A stretch of DNA of 64,000 nucleotides from Octopus sinensis (taxonomy: Eukaryota), in contig NC_043021.1 of assembly GCF_006345805.1 (NCBI RefSeq), positions 17,360,001 through 17,424,000 on the forward strand. The letters run 5' to 3'. A program made the position numbers and the translations under genes. The notes beneath the pieces are model-generated. The model saw only the letters and a program-made list of their open reading frames with translations. It did no database searches and was not told the origin of the DNA. Shown piece after piece: positions 2,087-56,976 of the stretch. Position 1 is the first letter of the stretch. Each line of letters starts with the position of its first letter.

Positions 2087-3067
2087 TTATTCGGCATCTG
2101 AACCGAGTCTGTCCAGCATGTGGTAGTTGAAATGGACTCGGTTTTCGAGGAAGACTTCGTTGGTTTTCTCCAGACTGACCGGTAAGCAACAACATCGGTC
2201 AGTGAGCGCCAGTTTGTATGTGATGAGCCAGATGATGAAGATGACTATGAAATTGGCCATGCCATGGGCCGCAAAGTACGTGGACAGAATGCTGATGTTG
2301 TAGTCCGTGATGTCCCACTTGTACGGGGAGCAGATGATCGTGCCGTAGTGGCACAGCCACGTGCCCTGCACGAGTGTGACGAACGAGCGTACGAATGGGA
2401 AGACTACCTGGTTGCGATAGTGGAACTCCAGTATGGTCACCACGACGGTCATAATGGCACAGTAAGTGACCAAGTTCTCACCGATCGAAGCCAGGCTGTC
2501 GTCTCGTTCATCGTCCATGACGTAGTGACCGAACAGAATTGCCTCGACGCCGAACGCGAATATGAAGATGCAGTAGTCGAGGCCCTGCGGCAGGCTATAA
2601 GTGCACGTCTGTGACCCGATGTTCACCAAACACGAGAGTCCGAAAGCCACAAGGATTATACAAGACCGCAATTTCAACATACTATTTTTAGCGTCGTTCA
2701 GTTCGGCACCCGCTCCAGCGCCACCACCGACCCAGTTGATTCCAGGCACATGTCGGTAATTTGTGACGAGTAAAAGGCCACAGATGATGAGGCAGATCTC
2801 GATGAAACTCTGTATCAGCTGCTTCCAGCGTTGCTTGCTGCAGGGGTAGACGAGCGACGAATGAAACTCGACGTGTTTCCACCTCATGAAGAAGAAGATG
2901 CGGGTCGTTTGCACGGTCCACCATAACGAGTACAGGATGAACATGACTCCGAGGATGAGGAAGTCAATGTAAGCACAAGCGAGTTCGGTATTGCTGTTGT
3001 TGCTGCTGCCGCTGCCGCTGGCCGGTGCATCGCTGCCTCCTTGACTTACGTTTGCACTGTGCACCAT
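2087..3067 (-). CDS. TMEM45/DUF716-family multi-pass membrane protein, 326 aa, single coding exon
   Basis: Long non-repetitive, GC-elevated ORF with ~7 hydrophobic segments. Motifs LPQGLDY, VEAILF, LVQGTW, KWD and YFAAH match recalled TMEM45 motifs (VPLGVD, MEGFLF, LQGTWFWQIG, EWD, CFCWH). Confidence 0.85.
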   Translation of the reverse strand: MVHSANVSQGGSDAPASGSGSSNNSNTELACAYIDFLILGVMFILYSLWWTVQTTRIFFFMRWKHVEFHSSLVYPCSKQRWKQLIQSFIEICLIICGLLLVTNYRHVPGINWVGGGAGAGAELNDAKNSMLKLRSCIILVAFGLSCLVNIGSQTCTYSLPQGLDYCIFIFAFGVEAILFGHYVMDDERDDSLASIGENLVTYCAIMTVVVTILEFHYRNQVVFPFVRSFVTLVQGTWLCHYGTIICSPYKWDITDYNISILSTYFAAHGMANFIVIFIIWLITYKLALTDRCCCLPVSLEKTNEVFLENRVHFNYHMLDRLGSDAE

Positions 3068-3074
3068 CCTTTAA

Positions 3075-8645: not shown

Positions 8646-9235
8646 CATATATGTATATATATATATATATATATATAGTGGGGCCCGTGCCAGTGGCACG
8701 TAAAAATCCCCCACTACACTCTTGGAGTGGTTGGCGTTGGGAAGGGCATCCAGCTGTAGAAACATTGCCAGATCAGATTGGAGCTGATGATGATAATAAT
8801 GGTGAAGATGATGGTGATAATGATGATGATGATGATAATGATGATCACATACTTATCAACATTGAACTTTTTTTTTTTCAATGTTACACCACTTGATATC
8901 ATCTGCTTTTTCCTTTCTGATTATTATCGTTGTGAGAGGAGTGGTTTGGTGCACTAATTAATTATTGATATATCAATAATAACAAAAGGTGAAAGTTCAA
9001 GCCTGCTGTTATTGGGTCAAGCAGGTGAGGAAGGTCAGAACGAAATGTCATTCAAATAAAACATCAGAAATGTTGTCACACATTCTGCACTTATTTTTTC
9101 CCCAATATGCTGATCATACTGTCAATCTAACACCATGTAATGATGATGATGATGATGATGATAATAATAATAATAATAATAATCTTTTCCACTGTAGGCA
9201 CAAGGCCCAAAATTTTGGGGGAGGAGGCCAGTCGA

Positions 9236-10160
9236 TTAGAAGAAGCAGACCAAACTCAACTGCAGTCTGACCTATATGCTGTGAGTCAATGGGCAGACAG
9301 AAACAAAATGCAACTGAACGAGGGAAAATTTGAGCTGATGCATTTTGGAAGAAAGTCCACACTAAAACAGCCATACTCTCTTCCTTCAGGAGAACCGCTC
9401 ACAGCCTCTAACAATATCAGAAATCTGGGCGTAATTGTTGATAACAATCTCAGTTGGAGTGCCCACATCAACAATAAGGTCAATATAGCTCGTAGGATGA
9501 GTTCCTGGATCTTAAGAACCTTCTGGTCCAGAGAACAAGGTGTCATCATACCACTTTTCTCTTCCTTTGTATGGCCACACCTGAATACTGCTGCCCACTG
9601 TGGTCTCCCCATACAAGACAAAACATCTCGAGGATTGCATCACCCCAGAGGGCACTCACTAAACGAATTAAAGGCATGGCTGCTCTCGATTATTGGGACT
9701 GCCTTAATGCTTTGAAACTCTTCTCTCTCCAGCACCGCCACGAGCAGTACATCATTTGTATGATGTGGAGAATATACCACCAACTTTGCCCAAATGACCT
9801 GAACATTGATTTCAAGGTTCATCCACGGTGGGGACCACGGGCCATACGTCCCCTGCCCAATTCAGGATCACAGCATATAGGTACACTGCAACATAATTTA
9901 TTTTCCTCAATAGGCCCTGCTCTGTTTAACATTGTCTCGAAAGAGATCAAAGAGATCAACTATAAATGGAGTTTGGATAGATTTCTTCAAGGAATACCGA
10001 ATAAGCCACCCATACCTGGATACAACTCACTCAACAAGAACTCACTATTTGAATGGACCATAAACAAAACTTGACTTAAACAGGATTTAGATAATCCTAT
10101 CAGGTGGTGCTACTAAGTTAGACATGGCCTGGACCAATCTTTGGTCGAAACAAATCTAAG
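9236..10160 (+). mobile_element. 5'-truncated CR1/L2-group LINE, ORF2 C-terminus (frameshifted) plus 3' UTR
   Basis: LQSDL..VSQWA..NKMQLN..KFELMHFG; NLGVIVDNNLSW..HI; PHL/EYCCPLWSP; GPALFN. Confidence 0.9.
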
Positions 10161-18610: not shown

Positions 18611-18727
18611 TTTGTAATCACCCCACTTGTCGTATGGTTAACACCATATAGATTTCCGGTGCATCCTAGTTAAGGACCATATTCATGTGAATTCTTTAGA
18701 ATTCACTTGAATCTCAATTACTTAACC

Positions 18728-18769
<42 letters not shown>

Positions 18770-18804
18770 TATATATATATAGATATATATATATATATAT
18801 ATAT

Positions 18805-19188
18805 ATTGTTGTCACTTAAAGCATGCAGAATCCATGCTCCATACATCTGAACCTTTCCCATCGAGTGAAGATGTTTTTCTATAGCAGTGTGGGAGCATTC
18901 CATTTTCTCTGCCAGTTCCTTTGTTGTTTGACGAGAATTTTCGTGTAAAAGTTGGTTTAATCGCTCTGCATCGAACTCAACTGGACGGCCAGAACGTGGT
19001 GCGACTTTAAGGTCAAAATTCTCATTTTTGAACTTGGCATACCAATCACGAGCAGTTCTTTCGGCTATGGCACTCTCTCCATACACAGCACAAATGTCCC
19101 GAGCAGGTTTTGCGACCTCAGAACCTTGATTAAAAGCAAAAAGAAGGAGGTGTCGAAAATGCTCGTTTTCCTTAACTTGACATTCCAT
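18805..19188 (-). mobile_element. Mariner transposase N-terminal (HTH) fragment, truncated
   Basis: HFRHLLLFAF...ARDICAVYGE.AI.ERTARDWYAKFK..NFDL...PRSGRP...WILHALS (WVPHEL-like). Confidence 0.9.
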
Positions 19189-19639
19189 TTTAATGACCTG
19201 AAAATAAACAGAAATTAACAAAAATTAACTAGAAAAATGCAAAAAAAAACCCAAAATATATTCCAAAATGATACAAAAATAGAATGTGATGTGCAAGTTG
19301 TGATTCTTCGATGCGGTTGGTGAAGCTGGTTGAAGGGAAGGCCGCAATTCGTTCACGGGGTCACCAAATGTAGAGGTTATGTGTGTGTATCAGGTGAAGA
19401 GATCCAAAAGGAATGTGTATGTCTTTCAAGTAAACAAATGAGTGAATAGATTCATAGATAAAAATAATTTATTCACTGGACTTAATTTGTCGTTGGTACA
19501 CAATTCTTCACTACATGCAAAATGTTGACAACTGCTACGAGTTGCTAGAAATAGAGAAATAGAGACAGGGTACATCTGTGGAAGTGAGGTGTCAGAAATC
19601 AATGTGTGTGTTGTGTGTGTGTATACATATGTACGTACA

Positions 19640-21750: not shown

Positions 21751-21967
21751 ACAAGACCTGCTTTACATGCTACAGGGACATTCTCTATGGATGCGCATAA
21801 CCTCCACACCTCTGACATTCAGCTGTGTGACTTCACCCCATCCTACTGTCTAACGTTGGCATCAAATTTAGACGCAAGGACAGTAATTTGCGGGGACGAG
21901 TTAAGTCGATTTCAACTGGTACTTTTTTTTATCAACTTCGAAAGGATGAAAAGCTAAGTCCACCTCA

Positions 21968-22513
21968 ATCGTCTGGAAGCCGTTCAGCGATGTGCAACTA
22001 AAAGAATACCCTCCATCAGGCATTTGCCATATTCTGAACGCCTTACTTCCCTGGGCATGGACACATTGAAACTCCGACGTCTGGCAGCTGACTTGGCAGA
22101 CACCTATAAAATTATTAACCACCTTACAAACAATAACTCTGAGCACCTTTTCAAACTCCACCCGTCTAACACCCGTGGACATATTTACAAAGTCAGGAAA
22201 CAGCACAGCTCCCATGGCTTTCGGATACATTTTTTTACGCTGAGAGTTGCTGAAGCATGGAACAAACTGCCGGCATCAGTTGTTACTTGTCGGAGCACTG
22301 CATCCTTCAAAACTTCCATGCTTCCTGAGATTCGCCAACACTACACCTGATTTTCTCCTCCCCTCCATACACACGCAAGCATGTATCTAACTAAAAAACT
22401 GTTCGCTTTCCAGGCATTTGTACATTACTACGTATACTTTATACGCACTTTCTGACAAGTTGTGGTGCACCTGAGCACTGTACACAATAATTTCATTATT
22501 ATTATTATTATTA
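21968..22513 (+). mobile_element. CR1 LINE 3' end with (ATT)n tail
   Basis: RLEAVQR.ATKRI...PYSERL..LG...L..RR...DL...YKI...TRGH.YK...FF..RV...WNKLP..VV. Confidence 0.9.
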
Positions 22514-26746: not shown

Positions 26747-26853
26747 TTATTTTATATATATATACATATACATATATATATGTATATATATTCGCCATGA
26801 TAGAACGTTATCTACTTCACACATTTTTTTCTCCTTGTTTTTTTTCTGTGTCC

Positions 26854-26890
26854 CTTTCTGTAGAAGAGCGTAAGGCTCGAAACATAAAAG
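26854..26890 (+). ncRNA. Minimal hammerhead-like motif (CUGUAGA core variant)
   Basis: cttt-CTGTAGA-AGAGC-GTAAG-GCTC-GAAA-cata-aaag, in the same repeat family as 1-389. Confidence 0.4.
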
Positions 26891-27407
26891 ACATTTTCTA
26901 TTCCTGAGCGTTATACTAATACATCTGTTTGTTTTATACACCACCTGTCTTCGTCTTTTTTTTTTCGTAAACTCTCCCTATGTATACAAGTATATATATA
27001 TATATATATATATATAAGATAAATGAAAAAGTGTATTGTAAATAAACAACAACGGTAGAAAACGTATAGCGTATAGTAAGTGTACAATTGGAATGGGGGA
27101 CAGACACAGAATGTCCCTAATTCTTCATCGGTTATCGGCCAGATGATATTACTCAGTTTCGCACCTTCGATGATAAGGACTTTCCTTGCTGATAAGGACT
27201 TCTCGAGGAAGTTGCGGAGAATATAGGGCCGAGAGCAACCAAAATAGTACAGAGTGGACACACGACAGTGAATAAATGTAATTTAAGACAATGGTCAAAG
27301 ACGAAACAATCAAGAAACGAGTAAACACACACACACACATATATATACCTGTGTGTGTGTATGTGTGTATATATATATATATACCTGTATATATATATAT
27401 ATGTACC

Positions 27408-27442
<35 letters not shown>

Positions 27443-27913
27443 ATATATATATATATATATACTTGTATATATAAATAGATGTGTGTATTTTTCCCTTGTT
27501 AACAATTAACCTGTACATACATACATACACACACACACATATATACATACACACACATAAACAAATGTCTGTATGGATGTTTTAAGTAAAGATTACGAAA
27601 GAAAAATAACTCAGAGTCTAGTGGCATCTATGTGATCAATATAAACAAGTATATATATATATATGTATATATATGTGTGTGTGTGTATGTTTCTTTATAT
27701 ATAATTTTTATACCTATATTATTGCGGCGTACGTAGACTCGTTCCCTTATGTATGCTTACATTCTATCCATTTGTACGACTTCTAAAAACTTTCTCTATA
27801 CTTCACTTTCTGTCTTTCTCTTTCTCGCCTTGATTCTTTGGTCCCCCTCTTCCCCCACGAATGAACAAAACCAACATACCAGGTTTTGTTCATTCATGAT
27901 ATATTTTGAATTC

Positions 27914-27977
27914 GTTTCACTGAAGAGCAAGAGACGTAGATAATACATTAATTGCGAAATCACAGGTGATCTGGAAC
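27914..27977 (+). ncRNA. Type I hammerhead ribozyme with canonical core, AUC cleavage triplet
   Basis: gtttca-CTGAAGA-gcaa...ttgc-GAAA-tcac-ag-gtga-TC-tggaac; all three stems pair. Confidence 0.8.
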
Positions 27978-29844
27978 TAAATTCTGTTTTTAAATGTCTT
28001 GCTTCGAGAGCTGCATTCGGTACGATTTGTTTATTTTTGGTAGTTATGACTTTAAAAGTCCGTCCTAGCGTGTGGCATTTATGTGTAATAATGCCCTCTA
28101 TATAATATAAATAAATATTTTCAAGTTAAAAAATTTACAGATTTTTTCTCTTATGAGGTTTTTCACGCTAACTACCTGATAATTTCTTATTAAGATTTTA
28201 TCCTATTTTAAATATATATATATATATTATATATTATATTATATAATATATATAATAGTTGAAATTTAGAGAAAAACATATATAATCATCATCACTTAAC
28301 GTCCGCTTTCCATGCTAGAATGGGTTGGACGATTTGACTGAGGGCTGGCGAACCAGATGGCTGCACCAGGCTCCAATCTTGATCTGGCAGAGTTTCTACA
28401 GCTGAATGCCCTTCCTAACGCCAACCACTCCGAGAGTGTAGTGGATGCTTTTACGTGCCACCAGCACGGGTGTCAGTCAGGCGGTACTGGCAACGACTTC
28501 GCTCGAATGTTTTTACCCGTACCAGTAAGGCGATGCTGGTAACGATCACGCTCGAATGGTGCCTTTTACATGCCACCGGACGTCACATATTTAACACCCC
28601 TCCTCCCTTAACACACACCATTTTCTGGTATTTTTCAAATGATTGGTCGCCTTGAGCTCTTGTCATTTTGGCCCGACACTCAACTAGTCTTGAAATGTGT
28701 TGTCATTCAGAAAACATGGGTTCAGCTTAAACGAAGGTTTGCTTCTTGGAGCAAAAAGACAAAGGAAACACTTTGAAGGTAATGGCAATAGAATTTAACG
28801 AGTTTTAGGCCAAATTTTATGCTGGTAATTTGTTAGGGTTCGTCAACCATCATAAAAAAATGCTTAGCTGTTGTAATACAACTTTACAGAACCCTATATT
28901 GTAATTGATCACAAGCGGATGCTATAATGTCTATTTGGGGACTGATTCAAGAAGATGGCTTCTAATGATCGTCTGCTTCACGCGCCTTTGCATTGAGCAG
29001 TACATTAACAACATGTGCGATCTTTGTGCTTCCTTAGAATCTTCTATGTTTGGCTGCCACTTTTCTTCCAATTGATTTCATATTTGGTGTATCGATGTAG
29101 TTTTGTATGGTAATCATTGACATGAAATTCATTTCTGCCATAAATCAATAAATAAAGAGTTAATAGCTTTTAAAATTTCCAAATTTGTGTACTTTTTAGC
29201 CAATCGAAAGCCACAGACATGTAGGTGCCTGTTTCCATAGTAACAATCCAAACTGTAAATAAGTTGCTTATTAAATGCTTAAAACATGATGTATGAGGTA
29301 GTCGGGAGATGTGCAAAAAATGATAGCTAAATAGGCCTTAAATTACGAACCCCAATTTTTTGTGCATAATCGTATAAATTCCAGCGTAAAATACAAATTC
29401 GCAAACATTTTTCTGAAAATTCAAAACATTTTTTAAAGTTACAAGTTTTTATATGATGTGCATATAGCAGAATCCCGTCAATATTTCACTTGTTTACAGT
29501 TGACAACACGTAATGACAGCTTCCAAATCCTATTTTCTGACTGGGTAAAAACGATCAAACTTTTAACTTTTTTTTAAAAAATGCTTCCGGAAAAAGTGAG
29601 ATTCAGCATGGAAAATTACCCCAATACACCAGATTTCAAAATTTTCACTAAACTTTGAAATTTCCACAGGTGCAACCAGACAGAAAAAAGTCCCTTATTG
29701 ACAACTTATGCATTGCATATGTATGTATGCAATGCATATATGTGTATATGCATGTAAGCTGCGTTCATATGCTTTGCGTCTATGTATGAGTTCATGCTTG
29801 AATCTGTTTATACGGATACATATATAATAGTATATCTGATTGTA

Positions 29845-31103
29845 CGAGGGGCGTTCAATAAGTAATGCCCCCTGACCCACTTGCAGTTGTTTGATCTATG
29901 TGAAATTTTGCATGTGCACTTATTTATACCTCTATAGATTAAGTGGCGAATTACAGCTCTGAACTAATTGTGGTTTCTGATTTACAGGTGTTTGAACTAA
30001 GTCAAGTGTGAAATGGAGCCTGTTGAGTGTCGAGCAGTGATCTGGTTTTTGTATTTGAAAGGACGCACACCACGGGAGACTTTTGATGAAATGAAAGTAA
30101 CTTATGGTGATGATACCCCATCATATGACCTTGTAAACGCTGGCATTGTGAATTCAAACATAGTCGGAACTCTGTGGAAACAGCTCCCAGATCTGGTCGC
30201 CCCCTTCTGCCGTTGATGAGACGTCTGTCCGTCAAGTTGAGGCTGCCATTTTGGAAGGTCAACGCATAACTATTCGCCAAATAGCCCATAAGGTCAAGAT
30301 TAGTACCGGGTCTTTGGAAACTATCATTCATGACCATTTGCATATGCAAAAGGTGTCTGCCAGATGGATTTCCAGGTTGCTCACACCTTTCCAGAAGCAA
30401 GAACGCGTTGAGTGCTCGAGGATGAATTTGGAGATGTGCCAAGAAGATGAGTCAAAATTTTTCAAAAGACTGATCACACAGGATAAAACCTGGGTCCATC
30501 ACTATGATCCATAGACCAAAGTCCAGTCAATGCAGTGAAAGCACCGCGACTCACCTCCTCCAAAGAAGGCAAGGGTGCAGCCCTCCGCTGACAAGGTTAT
30601 GCTCACAGTCTTCTGGGACCAGGACGGAGTAGTGATGACAGATTTCCTGGCAAAGGGTACCACAATTACAGGAGCCTATTATTATGCTTCACTTTTGAGG
30701 AAATTAAGAGAAGGAGGCGGGGCAAGATCAGCAAAGGCATCCTCCTCCTGCAGGACAACGCTCCGGTTCACCTCTCGCGTGTCGCCAGATCAGAAGTACA
30801 GGCGTGCAGCTATGAACTCCTCCCCTTGCACCCTCTGATTTTCACCTCTTCCCAGTCATGAGTTGATTTTGAAAGGAAAGCGTTTCCCAGATGATGCAGC
30901 GCCTTGATTCTGAAGTCACGTCGTGGTTGGAGGACCAAGCTGGGGTCTTCTACAAAAACGTCTCCAGAGCTGTATCAAACGATGGGAGAAATGCATAACT
31001 CTGGGTAGTTCCTATGTAGGAAAAGACTAATAACTGTGCCAAGTGTCGTTGCTCTACTGCTATGGGAAGTGGGTCAGGGGCATTACTTATTGAACGCCCC
31101 TCG
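29845..31103 (+). mobile_element. Full-length defective mariner transposon (~1.26 kb, irritans/Hsmar2-like) with TA TSD
   Basis: TIR cgaggggcgttcaataagtaatgcccc(c)tgacccactt at both ends, flanked by TA. Transposase from 30013 with RAVI.FL, WISRLL, ITQDKTWVHHYDP, KVMLTVFWD and QDNAPVH; stops and frameshifts present. Confidence 0.95.
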
Positions 31104-32471
31104 TACGTATATGAGCAAGCACGTATCTAACTTATGTGTACATGTGCACTAATAGGCTAAAAGCCTTATTCTAAAGAAAATAAACCAAACATGCCATCGA
31201 GTGAATGTGGGACAGGAAGCCGAATTCTTTGAAGTCGACAAATTCGTATTTGGGACTCTCTCTCTCTTTTACTTGTTTCAGTCATTTGATTGCGGCCATG
31301 CTGGAGCGCCGCCTTTAGTCGAGCAAATCGACCCCGGGACTTATTCTTTGTAAGCCCAGTACTTATTCTATCGGTCTCTTTTTTGCCGAACCGCTATGTG
31401 ACGGGGACGTAAACACACCAGCATCGGTTGTCAAGCAATGCTAAGTGGACAAACACAGACACACAAACACACACGGTATTTCGTCTGCCGTTACGTTCTG
31501 AGTTCAAATTCCGCCGAGGTCGACTTTGCCTTTCATCCTTTCGGGGTCGATAAATTAAGTACCAGTTACGCACTGTGGTCGATGTAATCGACTTAATCCC
31601 TTTGTCTGTCCTTGTTTGTTCCCTCTATGTTTAGCCCCTTGTGGGCAATAAAGAAATAATTACTCTTTACTCTCTTTTACTTGTTTCAGTCATTTGACTG
31701 CGGCCATGCTGGAGCACGGCCTTTAGTCGAGCAAATCGACCCCGGGACTTACCCTTTGTAAGCCCAGTACTTATTCTATCGGTCCTTGTGCCGAACCGCT
31801 AAGTGACGGGGACGTAAACACACCAGCATCGGTTCTCAAGGAATGCTAGGGGGACAAACACACACACATATATATATGTATATACATATATACGACAGGC
31901 TTCTTTCAGTTTCCGTCTACCAAATCCACTCACAAGGCATTCGTCGGCCCGGGGTTATAGCAGAAGAAACTTGCCCAAGATGCCACGCAGTGGGACTGAA
32001 CCCGGAACCATGTGGTTGCGGAATTTTATCCATCAATTTCCTAACTACGAGAGACTAAAAGAAATGGAAGTGATTTTGACGTTTAAAGCTGAAGCTTTTC
32101 TCCAAAAACAGGACAAAGGTGTATAGACAGAAGGAAGAGGTATAGAGGAAGGGTAAAATAGGGCCAGAGAAATATAAAACGATCTGCATCAAACTTATAT
32201 GAGTCTGAGACGTTTTAGCACAACTGATTCGATGCTGACTTCCTTGACAACAGACAGTCTAATGTTTCTCCCATTCTCTCTGTTTATGCATATGAGCATC
32301 TAGTTATGTTTGTATGTGTAATGTCTCTCTCTTTCTCTCTACTTATCTATCTCTGTATGTGTATGCTTATTTGCCTTCAGTGCCGAAGCAGTTTGATGTC
32401 CAATCAGTCCTCGTAGTATCCAAAGAGCCACACACATACGCATATATGTGTGTGTGTGTGTGTGGTGTATA

Positions 32472-32514
<43 letters not shown>

Positions 32515-32873
32515 ATATATGCCTTCTGGCATGTATATATATATATATAATGCCTTCTGGCATGTATGTATAATGCCCTCTATATATAAATTAATATGTT
32601 CAATAAGAAATAATTATTTTCGAAATTTTTTCTCTTATGAGGTTTTTACGCTATCTACCTGACAATTTCTTGTTAAGTTTTCCTTATAAGTAGTTGTCCT
32701 TAATTGCTAAATTTTTATTCCGAAAAAACTTTTCCTCTCCCGAAATGCAATTCGTAAAAGTTTGCCATTTACCCGGATGTGATATATGTAAACTCACCCA
32801 TGTGCTTCGTTGATGTTGATCAGTTAGCTGATCGGCTTAAGCGGGGCAGGGTCGTTGTTTATTTATAACATTC

Positions 32874-32921
32874 AGGCCTGCTGATGATTACGTAAGTATG
32901 AAATCACTGTGATACAGGTCT
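32874..32921 (+). ncRNA. Type I hammerhead ribozyme, array copy 1
   Basis: aggcctg-CTGATGA-t-tac-gtaa-gta-t-GAAA-tcac-t-gtga-TA-caggtct; predicted cut after 32914 (AUA). Confidence 0.8.
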
Positions 32922-33348
32922 ATATTTTTAAATGTCTTACTTTGAAAAATTGCATTCGGTGGGAGTAGTAATATTTTGGTAGAAATGACTGATTGTCCCT
33001 CTTAGCGTTTGGCATGTATGTATAATGCCTTCTGGCATGTATGTATAATGCCCTCTATATATAAATTATATGTTCAATAAGAAATAATTATTTTCGAAAT
33101 TTTTTCTCTTATGAGGTTTTTACGCTATCTACCTGACAATTTCTTGTTAAGTTTTCCTTATTAAGTAGTTGTCCTTAATTGCTAAATTTTTATTCCGAAA
33201 AAACTTTTCCTCTCCCGAAATGCAATTCGTAAAAAGTTTGCCATTTACCGGATGTGATATATGTAAACTCACCCATGTGCTTCGTGATGTTGATCAGTTA
33301 GCTGATCGGCTTAGCGGGGCAGGGTCGTTGTTTATTTATAATACATTC

Positions 33349-33395
33349 AGGCCTGCTGATGATTACGTAAATATGAAATCACTGTGATACAGTCT
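33349..33395 (+). ncRNA. Type I hammerhead ribozyme, array copy 2 (stem II G>A, 1-nt stem I deletion)
   Basis: aggcctg-CTGATGA-ttacgtaaatat-GAAA-tcactgtga-TA-cagtct. Confidence 0.65.
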
Positions 33396-33822
33396 ATATT
33401 TTTAAATGTCTTACTTTGAAAAATTGCATTCGGTGGGATTAGTAATATTTTGGTAGAAATGACTGATTGTCCCTCTTAGCGTTTGGCATGTATGTATAAT
33501 GCCTTCTGGCATGTATGTACAATGCCCTCTATATATAAATTAATATGTTCAATAAGAAATAATTATTTTCGAATTTTTTCTCTTATGAGGTTTTTACGCT
33601 ATCTACCTGACAATTTCTTGTTAATTTTTCTTATTAAGTAGTTGTCCTTAATTGCTAAATTTTTATTCCGAAAAAACTTTTCCTCTCCCGAAATGCAATT
33701 CGTAAAAGTTTGCCATTTACCCGGATGTGATATATGTAAACTCACCCCACCATGTGCTTGTATGTTGATCAGTTAGCTGATCGGCTTAAGCGGGGCAGGG
33801 TCGTTGTTTATTTATAACATTC

Positions 33823-33870
33823 AGGCCTGCTGATGATTACGTAAGTATGAAATCACTGTGATACAGGTCT
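33823..33870 (+). ncRNA. Type I hammerhead ribozyme, array copy 3
   Basis: Identical to copy 1. Confidence 0.8.
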
Positions 33871-34299
33871 ATATTTTTAAATGTCTTACTTTGAAAAATT
33901 GCATTCGGTGGGATTAGTAATATTTTGGTAGAAATGACTGATTGTCCCTCTTAGCGTTTGGCATGTATGTATAATGCCTTCTGGCATGTATGTATAATGC
34001 CCTCTATATATAAATTAATATGTTCAATAAGAAATAATTATTTTCGAAATTTTTTCTCTTATGAGGTTTTTACGCTATCTACCTGACAATTTCTTGTTAA
34101 GTTTTCCTTATTAAGTAGTTGTCCTTAATTGCTAAATTTTATTTCCGAAAAAACTTTTCCTCTCCCGAAATGCAATTCGTAAAAGTTTGCCATTTACCCG
34201 GATGTGATATATGTAAACTCACCCATTGCTTCGTTGATGTTGATCAGTTAGCTGATCGGCTTAAGCGGGGCAGGGTCGTTGTTTATTTATAATACATTC

Positions 34300-34347
34300 A
34301 GGCCTGCTGATGATTACGTAAGTATGAAATCACTGTGATACAGGTCT
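34300..34347 (+). ncRNA. Type I hammerhead ribozyme, array copy 4
   Basis: Identical to copy 1. Confidence 0.8.
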
Positions 34348-34799
34348 ATATTTTTAAATGTCTTACTTTGAAAAATTGCATTCGGTGGGATTAGTAATAT
34401 TTTGGTAGAAATGACTGATTGTCCCTCTTAGCGTTTGGCATGTATGTATAATGCCTTCTGGCATGTATGTATAATGCCTTCTGGCATGTATGTATAATGC
34501 CCTCTATATATAAATTAATATGTTCAATAAGAAATATTATTTTCGAAATTTTTTCTCTTATGAGGTTTTTACGCTATCTACCTGACAATTTCTTGTTAAG
34601 TTTTCCTTATTAAGTAGTTGTCCTTAATTGCTAAATTTTTATTATCCGAAAAAACTTTTCCTCTCCCGAAATGCAATTCGTAAAAGTTTGCCATTTACCC
34701 GGATGTGATAATGTAAACTCACCCATGTGCTTCGTTGATGTTGATCAGTTAGCTGATCGGCTTAAGCGGGGCAGGGTCGTTGTTTATTTATATACATTC

Positions 34800-34847
34800 A
34801 GGCCTGCTGATGATTACGTAAGTATGAAATCACTGTGATACAGGTCT
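34800..34847 (+). ncRNA. Type I hammerhead ribozyme, array copy 5
   Basis: Identical to copy 1. Confidence 0.8.
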
Positions 34848-34991
34848 ATATTTTTAAATGTCTTACTTTGAAAAATTGCATTCGGTGGGATTAGTAATAT
34901 TTTTGGTAGAAATGACTGATTGTCCCTCTTAGCGTTTGGCATGTATGTATAATGCCTTCTGGCATGTATGTATAATGCCCTCTATATATAA

Positions 34992-35031
<40 letters not shown>

Positions 35032-40855: not shown

Positions 40856-42805
40856 TCAGCCTTGCACAGTGAAACTCTTTTCAATCTGGAGTTCAATCAA
40901 GTCCATGAAGCAGATCTTCGTCTCTCCACTGTCGAGAAGTTCACGGATTTTTCTGTTACATGGTTTATAAGGGACGTCCACATTCTGCACAAGGTACTTC
41001 GAGATAAGATAGTCGAGGGCGTTGATCTTCGTCACGCCGCTCTGGTGGTCTTTGCTGTTCTTCACCTGCTGAGCGGCCGACAAGCACTTCTCCACGAAGG
41101 CCGGATCCTTCGCCGACACCGGCGACACGTTCTCCTTGCTGCTGCTACTGCTGTGGCGCTTATGACCCGCTGTTGCTGCCGCCTCTTCGTCCTTGCCGTT
41201 TTTCGCGGCGCGCCCCACCTCTTCGCTCTCGTCGAGGCTCGGCTCCTTCTTCTTCCTCCGTTTGTTATTACAATCACTCTCCTCCGACTCCCCTTCATCA
41301 TCAGCATCATCATCACTGCTGCCTTCACCTTTACTCTTAGTCCCGCCTCCTCCTCCTGAGGCCCCTCTCTTTTTGCTGGTGACGTCTGTGGTGAGCACAC
41401 TTTCCGAGTGACTAGATTCCTCCCTGTTCGTTCTATTTTCACTAGCGTTATGGTTCCGACTCTGACTTGTATCTTCTTTATTTTCTACTTCATCGCTTTT
41501 GTTGTCTCCACTGTCACCATCATTGCTCTGGCTGTTATTACTACTGCTGTTAATACTACTACTATTATTATTATTATTAATATTATCATTATCATCATCA
41601 TCATCATCATTATTATATTATTATTATTATTACTATTACTATTACTACCACCACCGTTGCCAGTAGAAACGCTGTCACCATCACCGCATCCTTCACCAGA
41701 GCTATCCTCTCTCTCGCTATTTTGTCCTCTAGTTGTTGTGGTTGTTGTTGTTGTTGTCACTGGTGTTGTCGTCGTTAGTGAATTTGGTGTTGTTGATGCT
41801 GATGTTGTTGTTGTTGTTGTTGCTGCTGCTGCTGCTGCCTGGTTGCCATCATGTTGCTGCTGCTGCTGCTGGTGATGCAAACTTCTGCTCGACAGACTCA
41901 TTTCGCTCGTCGCCTGCGAACAGCCGTTCAGGAGATGATGCATAAGATTCAGATAATTCTCTGGGGCCCTGTTTACCGAGCTGGGCGGCTCCCACCGGTC
42001 GTTGAGGACATCCTTACTCGAGTCGTCGACATCGATGTCCACTTCCATGTCGGCCGCTTCGTCCTCAGTTCCACCCTTGTGGTCAATATCTGTGACGTCA
42101 ATATCTTTCCGCTTGGCCGCTGTTGCCGTGGACAACGATGATGATGATTCCATGGGCTCCTCCTCTTTGTTTTCTTCCTCCCCATCTTCCCCGTACCTTC
42201 GGCGCTGACGTTGTTGTTGTTGTTGTTGTTCGGAGATGGCAGACGAGCAGGTTGTCTTTGATGGGGTTTCCTCATCAATTGTGATACAGTTGCTAGCGTT
42301 GTAGCTGTTGATCATGTCTGGGGCTAATCTCGAGGAAGGGGCCACTCGCTTCCCGTAACAAGGACCATTCGAAGATGTGATGTTGTTACTGCTGTTGTTG
42401 TTGCTGTGGCTGCTTGTGAGGTCCGTAGTGTTACTTGGGCAGTTCATTACTCGGGGCCAGCTGGGGGTTGAAGACGCGATAGGGCATGACTGGGGCCGAC
42501 TCAGCAGTCTGATTTCATCAGAAGGGGGCACATCCCTTGTGCGACATGTCATGGCAATGTCTGGTTGTAGGCGGGCATATTTAAGTTGGTCGTCAAATCG
42601 CCACTGGTAGCAACCGTCGACAGCGACGATGGGTGGTGGTGGAGGGGGCAACGGCGGCACCACGGTCATCATTGTGGCCTGTCGCATCTGGTGCTTTTGT
42701 CTGAGGAGTTGGCGCAAATGTGACGGCGCTCTTTGGCACTCGCAGGACTTGATCAAGCATAAGGGCCGTTCTTGAAAGCCGCAGTTTTGTGGTTGCTGCT
42801 GCTGA

Positions 42806-42867
<62 letters not shown>

Positions 42868-42969
42868 TTCCTTGGGGTTGCGTTTTGTTGAGTGTACGCT
42901 GAGGTCCAGAGGTTCCATGGCTTCGTCTTCTTCAATCGGATTCATGTAATTTGTGATGTGAGATTCCAT
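40856..42969 (-). CDS. Uncharacterised ~704-aa low-complexity nuclear protein, putative co-repressor scaffold; one reading frame broken by a 1-bp deletion at ~41617
   Basis: The 494-aa and 180-aa ORFs join without stops if one A is restored in (AAT)n. Splice acceptor tttcag at 43041-43046 and an in-frame upstream stop at 43015-43017. Contains PLDLS, LRQLL, polyQ, the NLS-like KRRKKK and a non-repetitive helical C-terminus. Confidence 0.75.
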
Positions 42970-43836
42970 TTCACTGGTTCTCTGTGGCTTCTTGGTGCTG
43001 CCAGGTGGGTTTAATTAACAAATTCTTCACCCATTCAAAACTGAAAATATACAAAAAATAAAAAAAAAAGAGAAAAAATATTAGTCACAATTCCCAAAAA
43101 ATTCTTGAGATCAAAAAGTATAATTTTTTCACTTTTTATATATAAAAAAAACTAACAAAAAAAAAAGCAAAAAAGATTCAAAATATCTGTTTCATGTCCA
43201 TTTTTCTATGTCAGCATGAGTTCATTGGATATTTATTTGCAGTGATGGGATGCTTCTCCTGTCATCAACTCTTAATTCTTTTACAAATAAGAGGTTGTCT
43301 TATTCTTTTATCGTCATCATCATTTAACCCTTTCATGACCAACCAGGCTGAAACCGGCTCTGGCTCTGAGTACAAATGTCTTGTTTTCAAAAGTTCTGAA
43401 TTAAAATCTTCCACCAAACCTTAGTCACAATTTATGTTCCTAACACTAGCTCAATGATAACTAAGTTATCTTACTAAATTCTTTGTTATATTTAAAATTG
43501 GTTGGGGAACAAATACAGATACACAAACACACACACACCATCATCATCATCATCATCATCATCTTCGTTTAACGTCCGTTCTCCATGCTAGCATGGGTTG
43601 GACGGTTTGACCGAGGATCTGGGAAGCCAGAAGGCTGCACCAGGCTCCAGTCTGATCTGGCAGTGTTTCTACAGCTGGATGCCCTTCCTAACGCCAACCA
43701 CCCTGTGAGTGTAGTGGGTGCTTTTTACGTGCCACCGGCACAGGTACCAGGCGAGGCTGGCAACGGCCACGATCGGATTGGTGCTTTTTACGTGTGACCG
43801 GCACAGAAAACCAGTTGAGGCGGCGCTGGCATATAT

Positions 43837-55808: not shown

Positions 55809-56189
55809 AGATAGACAGTACCACAATGTAACTTCTCATTAAGCTACCAGGTGTAAACCATTCATTTCATTATCCAATATACATATATATATATATTTGA
55901 TTTTTTGATTTTTCCAGTTTCAGCTAATGAGCTGTGGCCATGCTGGGGCACCGCCATATATATATATATATATATAAAAACTGTACTTGGAGAAGAAGAA
56001 ACGAAACGAAACGAATTGAATCGAATCGATGCGAGGGCGCTCAGTCATACAATAGTGTAATGAATAAAATATATGCATACATATATATATGTACGTAGCT
56101 TTATGAAAATAGACAAAAGACGAAGGCAGGTGGAAAACAAACGAACAATTGTATTAGTATGGCGCTCAGGAAATATAAATAAAACAAGT

Positions 56190-56225
56190 CTTTAACGTTT
56201 CGAGCCTACGCTCTTCAACAGAAAG
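56190..56225 (-). ncRNA. Minimal hammerhead-like motif (CUGUUGA variant)
   Basis: cttt-CTGTTGA-AGAGC-GTAG-GCTC-GAAA-CG-TT-aaag. Confidence 0.5.
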
Positions 56226-56462
56226 ATACACAGAGAGAGAAAAACACAGAAAGAAGGAGAGAAAAAAAATGCGTGCAGTAGCTAACGAATCAACATGGCG
56301 ATCTGATTTCGGCCAGAGGTCAAAGATCAAACATGAGACGCGAGAGCGAAATAAGGGGAGATAATAGGGTTGATAAAAGGGTTGAGGGACCAGCTAAAAG
56401 TGCGTGGGAGGGGTCTGGATGTGTGTATGTATAGGGTTGGTGTATGTATTAGTATGTATAAG

Positions 56463-56497
<35 letters not shown>

Positions 56498-56976
56498 GTA
56501 TGAGAGAGTATTAGTGCGTAAGATTGGTCTGGACATGCGTATGTATGGGGTTGGTGTATGTATTAGTATGTATTAGTACGTATTGGTATGTATAGGTATG
56601 TGTGTGTGTGTGTGAGAGAGTATAAGTGCGTATGCGGGGTCTGGACGTGTGTATGTATAGGGTTGGTGTAAGTATTAGTATGTACTAGTATGTATTAGTA
56701 CGTATTAGTATGCATATATAAATATATATATGTGAGTACAGGACACCACAAATAGACGTAGAACTCAACGAGAAACGAAAACGTAAAAACAAGCATGGAA
56801 CGGACCATTTTTTACAACGAAAAAACAGAGTACAAGACAAACTAAACAAGGAAAAAAAACCCTTCATCAGCTGTCCCTAGTTCAACTCCAAACAAGAAAG
56901 CACAAAAAATCACAACGCGAGGACATGGAACAAATATAGTATTATTGGACACTCAGGAAAGAAGGAAAGAACGAGG

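What the first reader, a model, noticed from the sequence alone, without database searches (positions are those of the whole stretch)
32520..34995. Ribozyme-punctuated tandem array: 5 x ~475 bp, one hammerhead per unit (candidate cephalopod retrozyme / circular RNA locus)
Seen: each unit contains aggcctg-CUGAUGA-[u-uac-guaa-gua-u]-GAAA-[ucac-u-guga]-UA-caggucu, which is a type I hammerhead with a 7-bp stem I, a tetraloop stem II and an AUA cleavage site. Units differ mostly by 1-nt indels that look like read error, so the array may be very young, and it has no intact ORF. Established: tandem non-coding repeats with type I HHRs define metazoan non-LTR retrozymes and Penelope-like-element pseudo-LTRs; their transcripts self-cleave to unit-length RNAs that can circularise and are mobilised in trans. 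Inference: a plus-strand transcript would give ~475-nt monomers or circles, and head-to-tail copies fit rolling-circle reverse transcription. I do not know of this being described in octopus but cannot verify novelty.
Basis: partly seen in the sequence, partly recalled or inferred. Interest (0 to 1): 0.92.

Follow-up and report, generated by a model that had tools for sequence, protein, structure and literature searches.

The report
Octopus hammerhead retrozyme with Penelope-type insertions
This is one young copy of a common non-coding jumping element that carries a self-cutting RNA motif; the class is known, but these copies preserve clear footprints of how Penelope-type machinery copies such elements into new sites.

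Summary
Observation confirmed: 5.1 x ~475 bp units, one type I hammerhead per unit, four intact, unit 2 damaged, no ORF over 57 aa. It is one insertion of a dispersed young family: 1,333 exact hammerhead cores, 4,547 for the wider clade, whose stem I pairs are rewritten yet kept. Insertions sit in (TA)n, are 5'-truncated and often have two inverted arms. Two fixed 3' ends ~120 nt apart (A, B) pair as A+B in 56 of 61 two-arm insertions, never AA or BB: the Penelope 'tail on one arm'. Both arms share a haplotype. One allele occurs exactly five times in the genome, once in each unit here, pointing to copying from a single unit. Best reading: a non-LTR retrozyme mobilised by a Penelope-like RT/endonuclease, probably from a circular monomer. 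Cleavage, circles, transcription and the partner element were not shown. Known class (mussel, coral, axolotl); no cephalopod report in my searches. The scan noted a ribozyme-free tandem element with Penelope-type ends in another genome (e1-7881736).

The parts
32520..34994 (+). One-arm tandem insertion of ~5.1 retrozyme units (family F1), 5' end inside a 23-mer repeat next to (TA)n, 3' end of type A
32874..32921 (+). Type I hammerhead, unit 1, intact; predicted cut after 32914
33349..33395 (+). Hammerhead, unit 2, damaged (1-nt loss in stem I, broken pair in stem II; may be read error); cut site 33389
33823..33870 (+). Hammerhead, unit 3, intact; cut after 33863
34300..34347 (+). Hammerhead, unit 4, intact; cut after 34340
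34800..34847 (+). Hammerhead, unit 5, intact; cut after 34840
33864..34340 (+). Predicted unit-length RNA (cut to cut, 477 nt); rod-like fold, z -7.4 linear, -9.6 circular
32900..32914 (+). Palindromic stem III (1-nt centre), favours a double hammerhead
   Evidence: dimer rule from PMC4209133 passages
34961..34994 (+). Conserved hairpin followed by fixed 3' end A, the end used by this insertion; hairpin pairs show compensatory changes in sister families
32592..32712 (+). ~120-nt 'tail' between fixed end A (~32581-32591) and fixed end B (~32707-32713), unit 1 shown; limits approximate because of AT microhomology
33003..33127 (+). Predicted helix (33003-33008 with 33122-33127) enclosing the hairpin and site A; kept in 9 divergent copies but without both-side changes
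32781..32781 (+). Array-private allele, present in all five units and nowhere else in the assembly
32468..32519 (.). (TA)n target remnant, left flank
34995..35017 (.). (TA)n target remnant, right flank
27882..28215 (+). Separate insertion of sister family F2 (~70% identical), hammerhead 27914-27977, ends at site B in (TA)n

Best explanation
The array is one insertion of a young non-autonomous retroelement, a metazoan non-LTR retrozyme, moved in trans by a Penelope-like RT/GIY-YIG protein. Shown from DNA: a dispersed non-coding ~475-nt family; a conserved hammerhead and a self-paired plus strand; (TA)n targets; variable 5' truncation; two fixed 3' ends ~120 nt apart; inverted two-arm insertions with one end of each type; one haplotype per insertion. 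Inferred: (1) arrays are transcribed on the plus strand; (2) neighbouring hammerheads pair through the palindromic stem III and cut the multimer into monomers, which a host ligase closes; a lone circle cleaves poorly and so persists; (3) the PLE protein cuts both strands of (TA)n and primes at site A on one strand and site B on the other, helped by AT microhomology; (4) RT runs round the circle through the hammerhead, giving arms of up to 13 units; (5) the two cDNAs join head to head, or one cDNA joins the target directly, as here (one arm, end A).
For: Dispersal: 146 matches among 38 of 959 candidates scored, full-length ones 94-100% identical; 1,333 exact cores, control 0. Ends: 21 of 21 two-arm insertions among the 29 clusters of the first 100 rows on C1 are A+B, and 9 of 9 best-hit loci with both ends visible (binomial p 1e-6 for 21/21); sister families 14 of 17 and 12 of 13, none AA or BB. 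[quoted passage not shown] Arms differ at 1.9% of informative sites within a locus and 34% between loci (24 loci). Private alleles: window 5 of 5 genome hits in this array; L033 4 of 6 and L028 6 of 8 hits in one locus, on both inverted arms. Arms cross the cut site: 18 of 20 A arms and 16 of 20 B arms exceed what a linear monomer allows, and both arms exceed one unit in 10 of 20; only 6 of 79 truncation points lie within 15 nt of the cut. Hammerhead selection: stem I has unrelated sequences yet 6-7 pairs across families; stem II variants keep pairing. Fold z -7.8 and -9.6 against -2.5, -1.2 and +0.8 for flanks. Young intact PLE ORFs exist in the genome.
Against: No autonomous partner with a matching terminal repeat among the ~60 PLE and neighbouring loci held. 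No RNA evidence of cleavage or circles. L056 mixes two haplotypes in blocks within one 13-unit arm and L058 is mixed at one site, which a single circle does not give without template switching. The fourth allele tested (L055) was a subfamily marker in 18 loci, not private. The U.U at the base of stem II departs from the conserved G10.1-C11.1 pair; 8 of 9 Xenopus retrozyme dimers did not cleave in vitro (10.64898/2026.07.22.740005). In vitro, a PLE preferred uncleaved RNA and did not need its hammerhead. Fold z is weaker in other copies (L037 -3.1, F2 -1.6, F3 -4.2). L021 has one B end and one end of neither type.
Confidence: 0.7

Rival explanations
1. Same element and same PLE machinery, but the template is an uncleaved multimeric transcript of a parent array; the hammerhead is weak or acts at another step, and no circle is needed.
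For: Unprocessed RNA was the dominant substrate for a PLE in vitro. Block-mixed haplotypes in L056. Weak stem II base. An earlier, unchecked note describes tandem Penelope-type insertions without any ribozyme (e1-7881736).
Against: The window allele has no parent array in the assembly: 5 of 5 hits are here; L033 and L028 alleles have only two single hits each elsewhere. Pure multimer copying can only shorten arrays and gives no route to fix a new allele in every unit (inference). A parent could be missing from a haploid assembly.
Confidence: 0.2
2. Monomers insert, then expand in place as a satellite by unequal crossover or gene conversion, the model discussed in 10.64898/2026.07.22.740005.
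For: It explains an allele fixed in all five units here and 23-mer copy changes.
Against: Arrays end in a truncated 5' unit and a fixed A or B end. Both inverted arms are multi-unit in 10 of 20 and share private alleles across the inversion. Unit-to-unit divergence is 0-2%.
Confidence: 0.06
3. A DNA rolling-circle (Helitron-like) non-autonomous element that happens to carry a hammerhead.
For: Tandem arrays, a 3' hairpin and AT targets are Helitron traits (recalled, no call).
Against: Variable 5' truncation, head-to-head arms with 2-15-nt microhomology in 14 of 30 junctions, two alternative 3' ends, and compensatory change in an RNA catalyst.
Confidence: 0.03
4. Assembly artefact.
For: Many 1-nt indels between units.
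Against: Similar arrays on many contigs, locus-specific haplotypes, an array-private allele, the unit present in other public runs. The unit count at this locus is untested.
Confidence: 0.01

Closest known systems
Metazoan non-LTR retrozymes (coral, mussel, axolotl; PMC7229834)
   Same: Tandem non-coding repeats, one type I hammerhead per unit, GC under 45% (0.34 here), self-paired monomer, co-occurring PLEs. U.U at the base of helix II as in axolotl HHR_Amex2, which cleaves better as a dimer.
   Different: Unit 470-500 nt, above the 150-450 bp quoted. Fixed A/B ends, inverted arms and (TA)n targeting did not appear in the parts I read. Expression and circles are untested here.
Vertebrate retrozymes as non-autonomous PLE derivatives (bioRxiv 10.64898/2026.07.22.740005)
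   Same: Tandem hammerhead units, proposed PLE dependence; 475 nt lies within the 51-972 bp range.
   Different: That study links them to PLEs by co-occurrence and pLTR homology, samples no mollusc, and discusses local amplification. Here the link is by insertion footprints, no homologous pLTR was found, and arrays look ready-made.
EN+ Penelope-like elements: pLTR, tail, inverted arm (PMC3846280, PMC8557442, PMC11167929)
   Same: 5' truncation, inverted 5' arm, optional tail on one arm, two internal RT start sites, microsatellite targeting, hammerhead in the repeat.
   Different: No ORF. The tail is ~120 nt instead of 30-40. Arms are multi-unit. The hammerhead has a full stem I and palindromic stem III, not the minimal PLE form.
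Newt satellite 2 / dimer-dependent type I hammerheads (as summarised in PMC7229834 and PMC4209133)
   Same: Palindromic helix III predicted to need two hammerheads.
   Different: The palindrome is longer (5+5 bp around one mismatch). No Rfam hammerhead model matches.

Membership tests
Type I hammerhead ribozyme | Core CUGANGA, GAAA, UH with three helices, open end in stem I | tested here: met
   4 of 5 units; 0 of 20,000 shuffles
Type I hammerhead ribozyme | Helices kept by compensatory change | tested here: met
   Stem I rewritten with 6-7 pairs in several families; stem II variants pair; counted by descriptor, not by a covariation statistic
Type I hammerhead ribozyme | Paired base of stem II (G10.1-C11.1) | tested here: not met
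   U.U here; A-U, G.U and G-C in relatives; U.U is tolerated in axolotl HHR_Amex2
Type I hammerhead ribozyme | Match to an Rfam hammerhead model | tested here: not met
   not a defining biological feature
Type I hammerhead ribozyme | Self-cleavage 3' of the UH | not testable with these tools
   needs in vitro assay
Non-LTR retrozyme | Tandem non-coding units of a few hundred bp, one type I hammerhead each, at least two consecutive intact | tested here: met
   units 3-5 consecutive and intact
Non-LTR retrozyme | Dispersed multi-copy family, GC under 45-50% | tested here: met
Non-LTR retrozyme | Highly self-paired monomer | tested here: met
   z -7.4, -7.8 and -9.6; weaker in other copies
Non-LTR retrozyme | Expressed as linear and circular monomer RNA | tested here: inconclusive
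   Only contigs of runs guessed to be RNA; they cannot show ends, strand or circles
Non-LTR retrozyme | Target-site duplication | tested here: inconclusive
   Hidden by (TA)n flanks
Non-autonomous PLE-mobilised element | 5' truncation and inverted 5' arm | tested here: met
   21 of 29 C1 clusters are two-arm
Non-autonomous PLE-mobilised element | Two fixed 3' ends, tail on one arm | tested here: met
   56 of 61 A+B, none AA or BB
Non-autonomous PLE-mobilised element | Homology to the pLTR of an autonomous PLE | tested here: inconclusive
   None among held PLE loci; only a small part of 5,029 GIY-YIG candidates was examined
Autonomous Penelope-like element | RT + GIY-YIG ORF | tested here: not met
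   Longest frame 57 aa; no PLE ORF continuous with the unit in held loci

The most novel reading that the evidence does not exclude
Each insertion is made by one ribonucleoprotein that primes the two target strands at two different fixed sites (A and B) of the same circular RNA, or of two circles held together by the palindromic stem III. The PLE 'optional tail' would then be an obligatory asymmetry of every two-ended integration, and stem III would tune array length by deciding how long a circle survives: 12 of 30 clusters with a 1-nt palindrome centre have three or more hammerheads against 0 of 17 with a 2-nt centre (hand tally, Fisher p 0.002; confounded by age and by few independent lineages).
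Probability: 0.35. Interest if true: 0.75.

Novelty: new member of a known kind. Interest (0 to 1): 0.55.

Why it matters
How animal retrozymes get into new loci is a published hypothesis (PLE machinery, circular template), not a result, and how PLEs make inverted repeats with a tail on one arm is an open question. This family gives hundreds of young natural insertions with scorable ends. They show PLE footprints on a retrozyme, a strict A+B pairing that the published in vitro assay did not examine because it scored the strands separately, and alleles that trace whole arrays to one unit. That argues against slow satellite growth and gives a direct prediction for a reconstituted PLE reaction. 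It also extends retrozymes to a cephalopod-type genome and shows that Rfam misses them. No host function is implied.

Tried and rejected
Rfam: no hit at gathering threshold; five chance-level hits in one unit, none a hammerhead. RNA: no RNA holder listed on record; four runs laid were contigs only and three were guessed to be RNA, so they show presence and contigs bridging the cut site, nothing on circles. Partner search: top 30 of 150 GIY-YIG matches and 20 wider regions showed no similarity to the unit; a PLE piece at the 5' end of L017 is the inverted arm of an older PLE; the PLE joined to an F2 A end in L139 is simply read as a later insertion into the (TA)n flank; its young, abundant family has a minimal hammerhead and no similarity to this clade; the 781-aa family appears to have a ~40-nt tail; an nhmmer profile hit only known clade copies; L179 carries a similar stem III but is an unrelated old repeat. 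Fold-back (self-priming) as the sole origin of inverted arms: impossible by length in 6 of 30 loci, possible in 24. An apparent phase relation between the two 5' breakpoints was not significant (permutation p 0.32). Truncation at the cut site: not enriched (6 of 79). MAFFT misaligned the hammerheads across families, so I used a descriptor count. Short-window hammerhead folds gave no significant z. One of four 'private' alleles was a subfamily marker. Rows dropped before the end count: L001, L010 (the window), L005, L012, L014, L024, L025, L026 (duplicates), L160, L161 (duplicates), and five loci with an end cut by the fetch limit (L002, L016, L020, L028, L030); L021 was left out and is counted by hand as 'other'. 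F2 and F3 queries fixed one end type, so only the other end is informative there. Loci were not scored for ends.

Full report
Observation. The array is real: 32542-35000, period 475, 5.1 copies, between (TA)n tracts. Each unit has CUGAUGA...GAAA...UA with a 7-bp stem I; four units are intact and unit 2 is damaged. A strict descriptor hit none of 20,000 shuffled units. Units differ by 0-4 substitutions and 6-12 indel events per pair. The longest frame is 57 aa and GC is 0.34. Rfam finds no hammerhead. Two details matter: stem II opens with U.U, and stem III is a palindrome that is unstable as a hairpin (-0.2 kcal/mol) but stable between two copies (-12.1). Such hammerheads are described as cleaving in multimers and not in monomer circles (PMC4209133, passages).

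The family. A DNA search gave 146 matches among 38 of 959 candidates scored; the exact 33-nt core occurs 1,333 times, control 0. The first 100 rows on contig C1 form 29 clusters, which I fetched as an unselected sample (plus L004); this suggests about 390 insertions (estimate). A looser pattern gives 4,547 cores. They belong to a clade of 470-500-nt non-coding families 68-98% identical to this one; one sister copy lies in the window at 27882-28215. Stem I has unrelated sequences in these families and still makes 6-7 pairs in most copies, and stem II variants keep pairing, so the hammerhead is under selection. The cut-to-cut monomer folds as a rod (z -7.4; circular -7.8 and -9.6 against -2.5, -1.2 and +0.8 for flanks; other copies -1.6 to -4.2). 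A hairpin just before end A shows both-side changes, and a helix enclosing it is kept in nine divergent copies without such changes.

Insertion anatomy. Insertions sit in (TA)n, have variable 5' ends and often consist of two head-to-head arms. There are two fixed 3' ends: A at unit position ~40-56 and B at ~166-177, counting from 32542. In the C1 sample 21 of 29 insertions have two arms and all 21 are A+B; so are 9 of 9 best-hit loci with both ends visible; L021 has B and an end of neither type. Sister families give 14 of 17 and 12 of 13, where the query fixed one end. In all, 56 of 61 are A+B and none is AA or BB. One-arm insertions end at A in 12, including this window, and at B in 3. [quoted passage not shown] The tail here is ~120 nt instead of 30-40.

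Template. Several subfamilies coexist, yet the two arms of an insertion differ at 1.9% of informative sites against 34% between loci (24 loci); variants fixed in only one sampled locus lie on both arms in 10 of 11 cases. I tested four such alleles genome-wide. The window's allele at 32781 occurs five times, once in each unit. The L033 and L028 alleles have 4 of 6 and 6 of 8 hits in one locus, on both arms. The L055 allele is a subfamily marker in 18 loci. Arms run through the cut site: 18 of 20 A arms and 16 of 20 B arms are longer than a linear monomer allows, both arms exceed one unit in 10 of 20, and breakpoints do not pile up at the cut (6 of 79). Fold-back copying cannot explain 6 of 30 loci. 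A circular monomer read by two RT events fits all of this. Against it, L056 alternates two haplotypes in blocks, a PLE preferred uncleaved RNA in vitro, and a parent array may be absent from the assembly.

Partner and expression. The genome has young intact RT + GIY-YIG ORFs and a very abundant young family with a minimal hammerhead and (TA)n ends, but none of the loci held shares sequence with the unit. The partner is unidentified. Expression is untested: no holder is on record as RNA and the laid contigs cannot show ends or circles.

Comparison and novelty. It works like, and meets the DNA-level definition of, a metazoan non-LTR retrozyme (PMC7229834: passages and parts 2-4 of 6; its supplement could not be read, and may list further species). 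A 2026 preprint ties vertebrate retrozymes to PLEs by co-occurrence and pLTR homology (10.64898/2026.07.22.740005, parts 1-3 of 5; supplements closed). Searches listed no cephalopod retrozyme. An Octopus vulgaris repeat paper has no occurrence of ribozyme, hammerhead or retrozyme (PMC13282606, passages); the giant squid genome paper lists 235 Rfam hammerhead hits without analysis (PMC6962438, passages); PMC5680766 (passages) and the one searched supplement file of PMC4209133 do not name Octopus. Subscription papers and repeat libraries were not searchable. The family labels F1-F3 and ends A and B are mine.

Verdict. New member of a known kind. The extra value is mechanistic: PLE footprints on a retrozyme, a strict A+B rule, and alleles that trace arrays to one unit. 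Interest 0.55.

Noticed in passing
window 27882-28215 (+): Copy of sister retrozyme family F2 with a G-C-based long stem II, ending at site B; a short inverted piece lies at its 5' junction (about 27860-27881).
   Followed up: yes
G000:C1:38173721-38180694 and L189: A second long-array family (about 73% identical to this one, 15 hammerheads in one cluster) also has U.U at the stem II base and a 1-nt palindrome centre.
   Followed up: partly
L056 (G000:C1:143650500-143660499): 13-unit arm with two haplotypes alternating in blocks of 4, 2, 3 and 4: template switching, a mixed parent, or a polishing artefact.
   Followed up: partly
L191:1-5300; fragment at window 56081-56715 (-): Full-length young PLE (pLTR-ORF-pLTR, Neptune-like cysteine linker by recall, minimal hammerhead, (TA)n end); 19,264 candidates.
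   Followed up: partly
L091, L089, L095: Intact two-ORF PLE families with RT + GIY-YIG (775-883 aa frames); L091 type seems to have a degenerate hammerhead core and a ~40-nt tail (by eye).
   Followed up: partly
window 26850-26985 (+): Short AT-flanked element with a minimal-hammerhead-like motif resembling the 3' end of the L191-type PLE (by eye).
   Followed up: no
L179:2760-3260 (-): Older repeat (about 80% between copies, 1,231 candidates) with a hammerhead of similar stem III but unrelated flanks, also showing inverted and tandem pieces.
   Followed up: partly
window 2087-3070 (-): Single-frame 327-aa DUF716 membrane protein gene.
   Followed up: partly
window 40856-43014 (-): Two overlapping low-complexity frames (509 and 253 aa), no Pfam hit, with a PLDLS motif (CtBP-binding, recalled); perhaps one gene split by a repeat indel. 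Its relation to the array, 6 kb away, is unknown.
   Followed up: partly
window 18718-19224 (-), 30164-30838 (+), 9131-10074 (+), 21958-22350 (+): Mariner transposase fragments and LINE-like fragments (by eye).
   Followed up: no
window 32888: A variant giving G.U at the stem II base is the only form in run X3 and about 4% of depth in X15.
   Followed up: no
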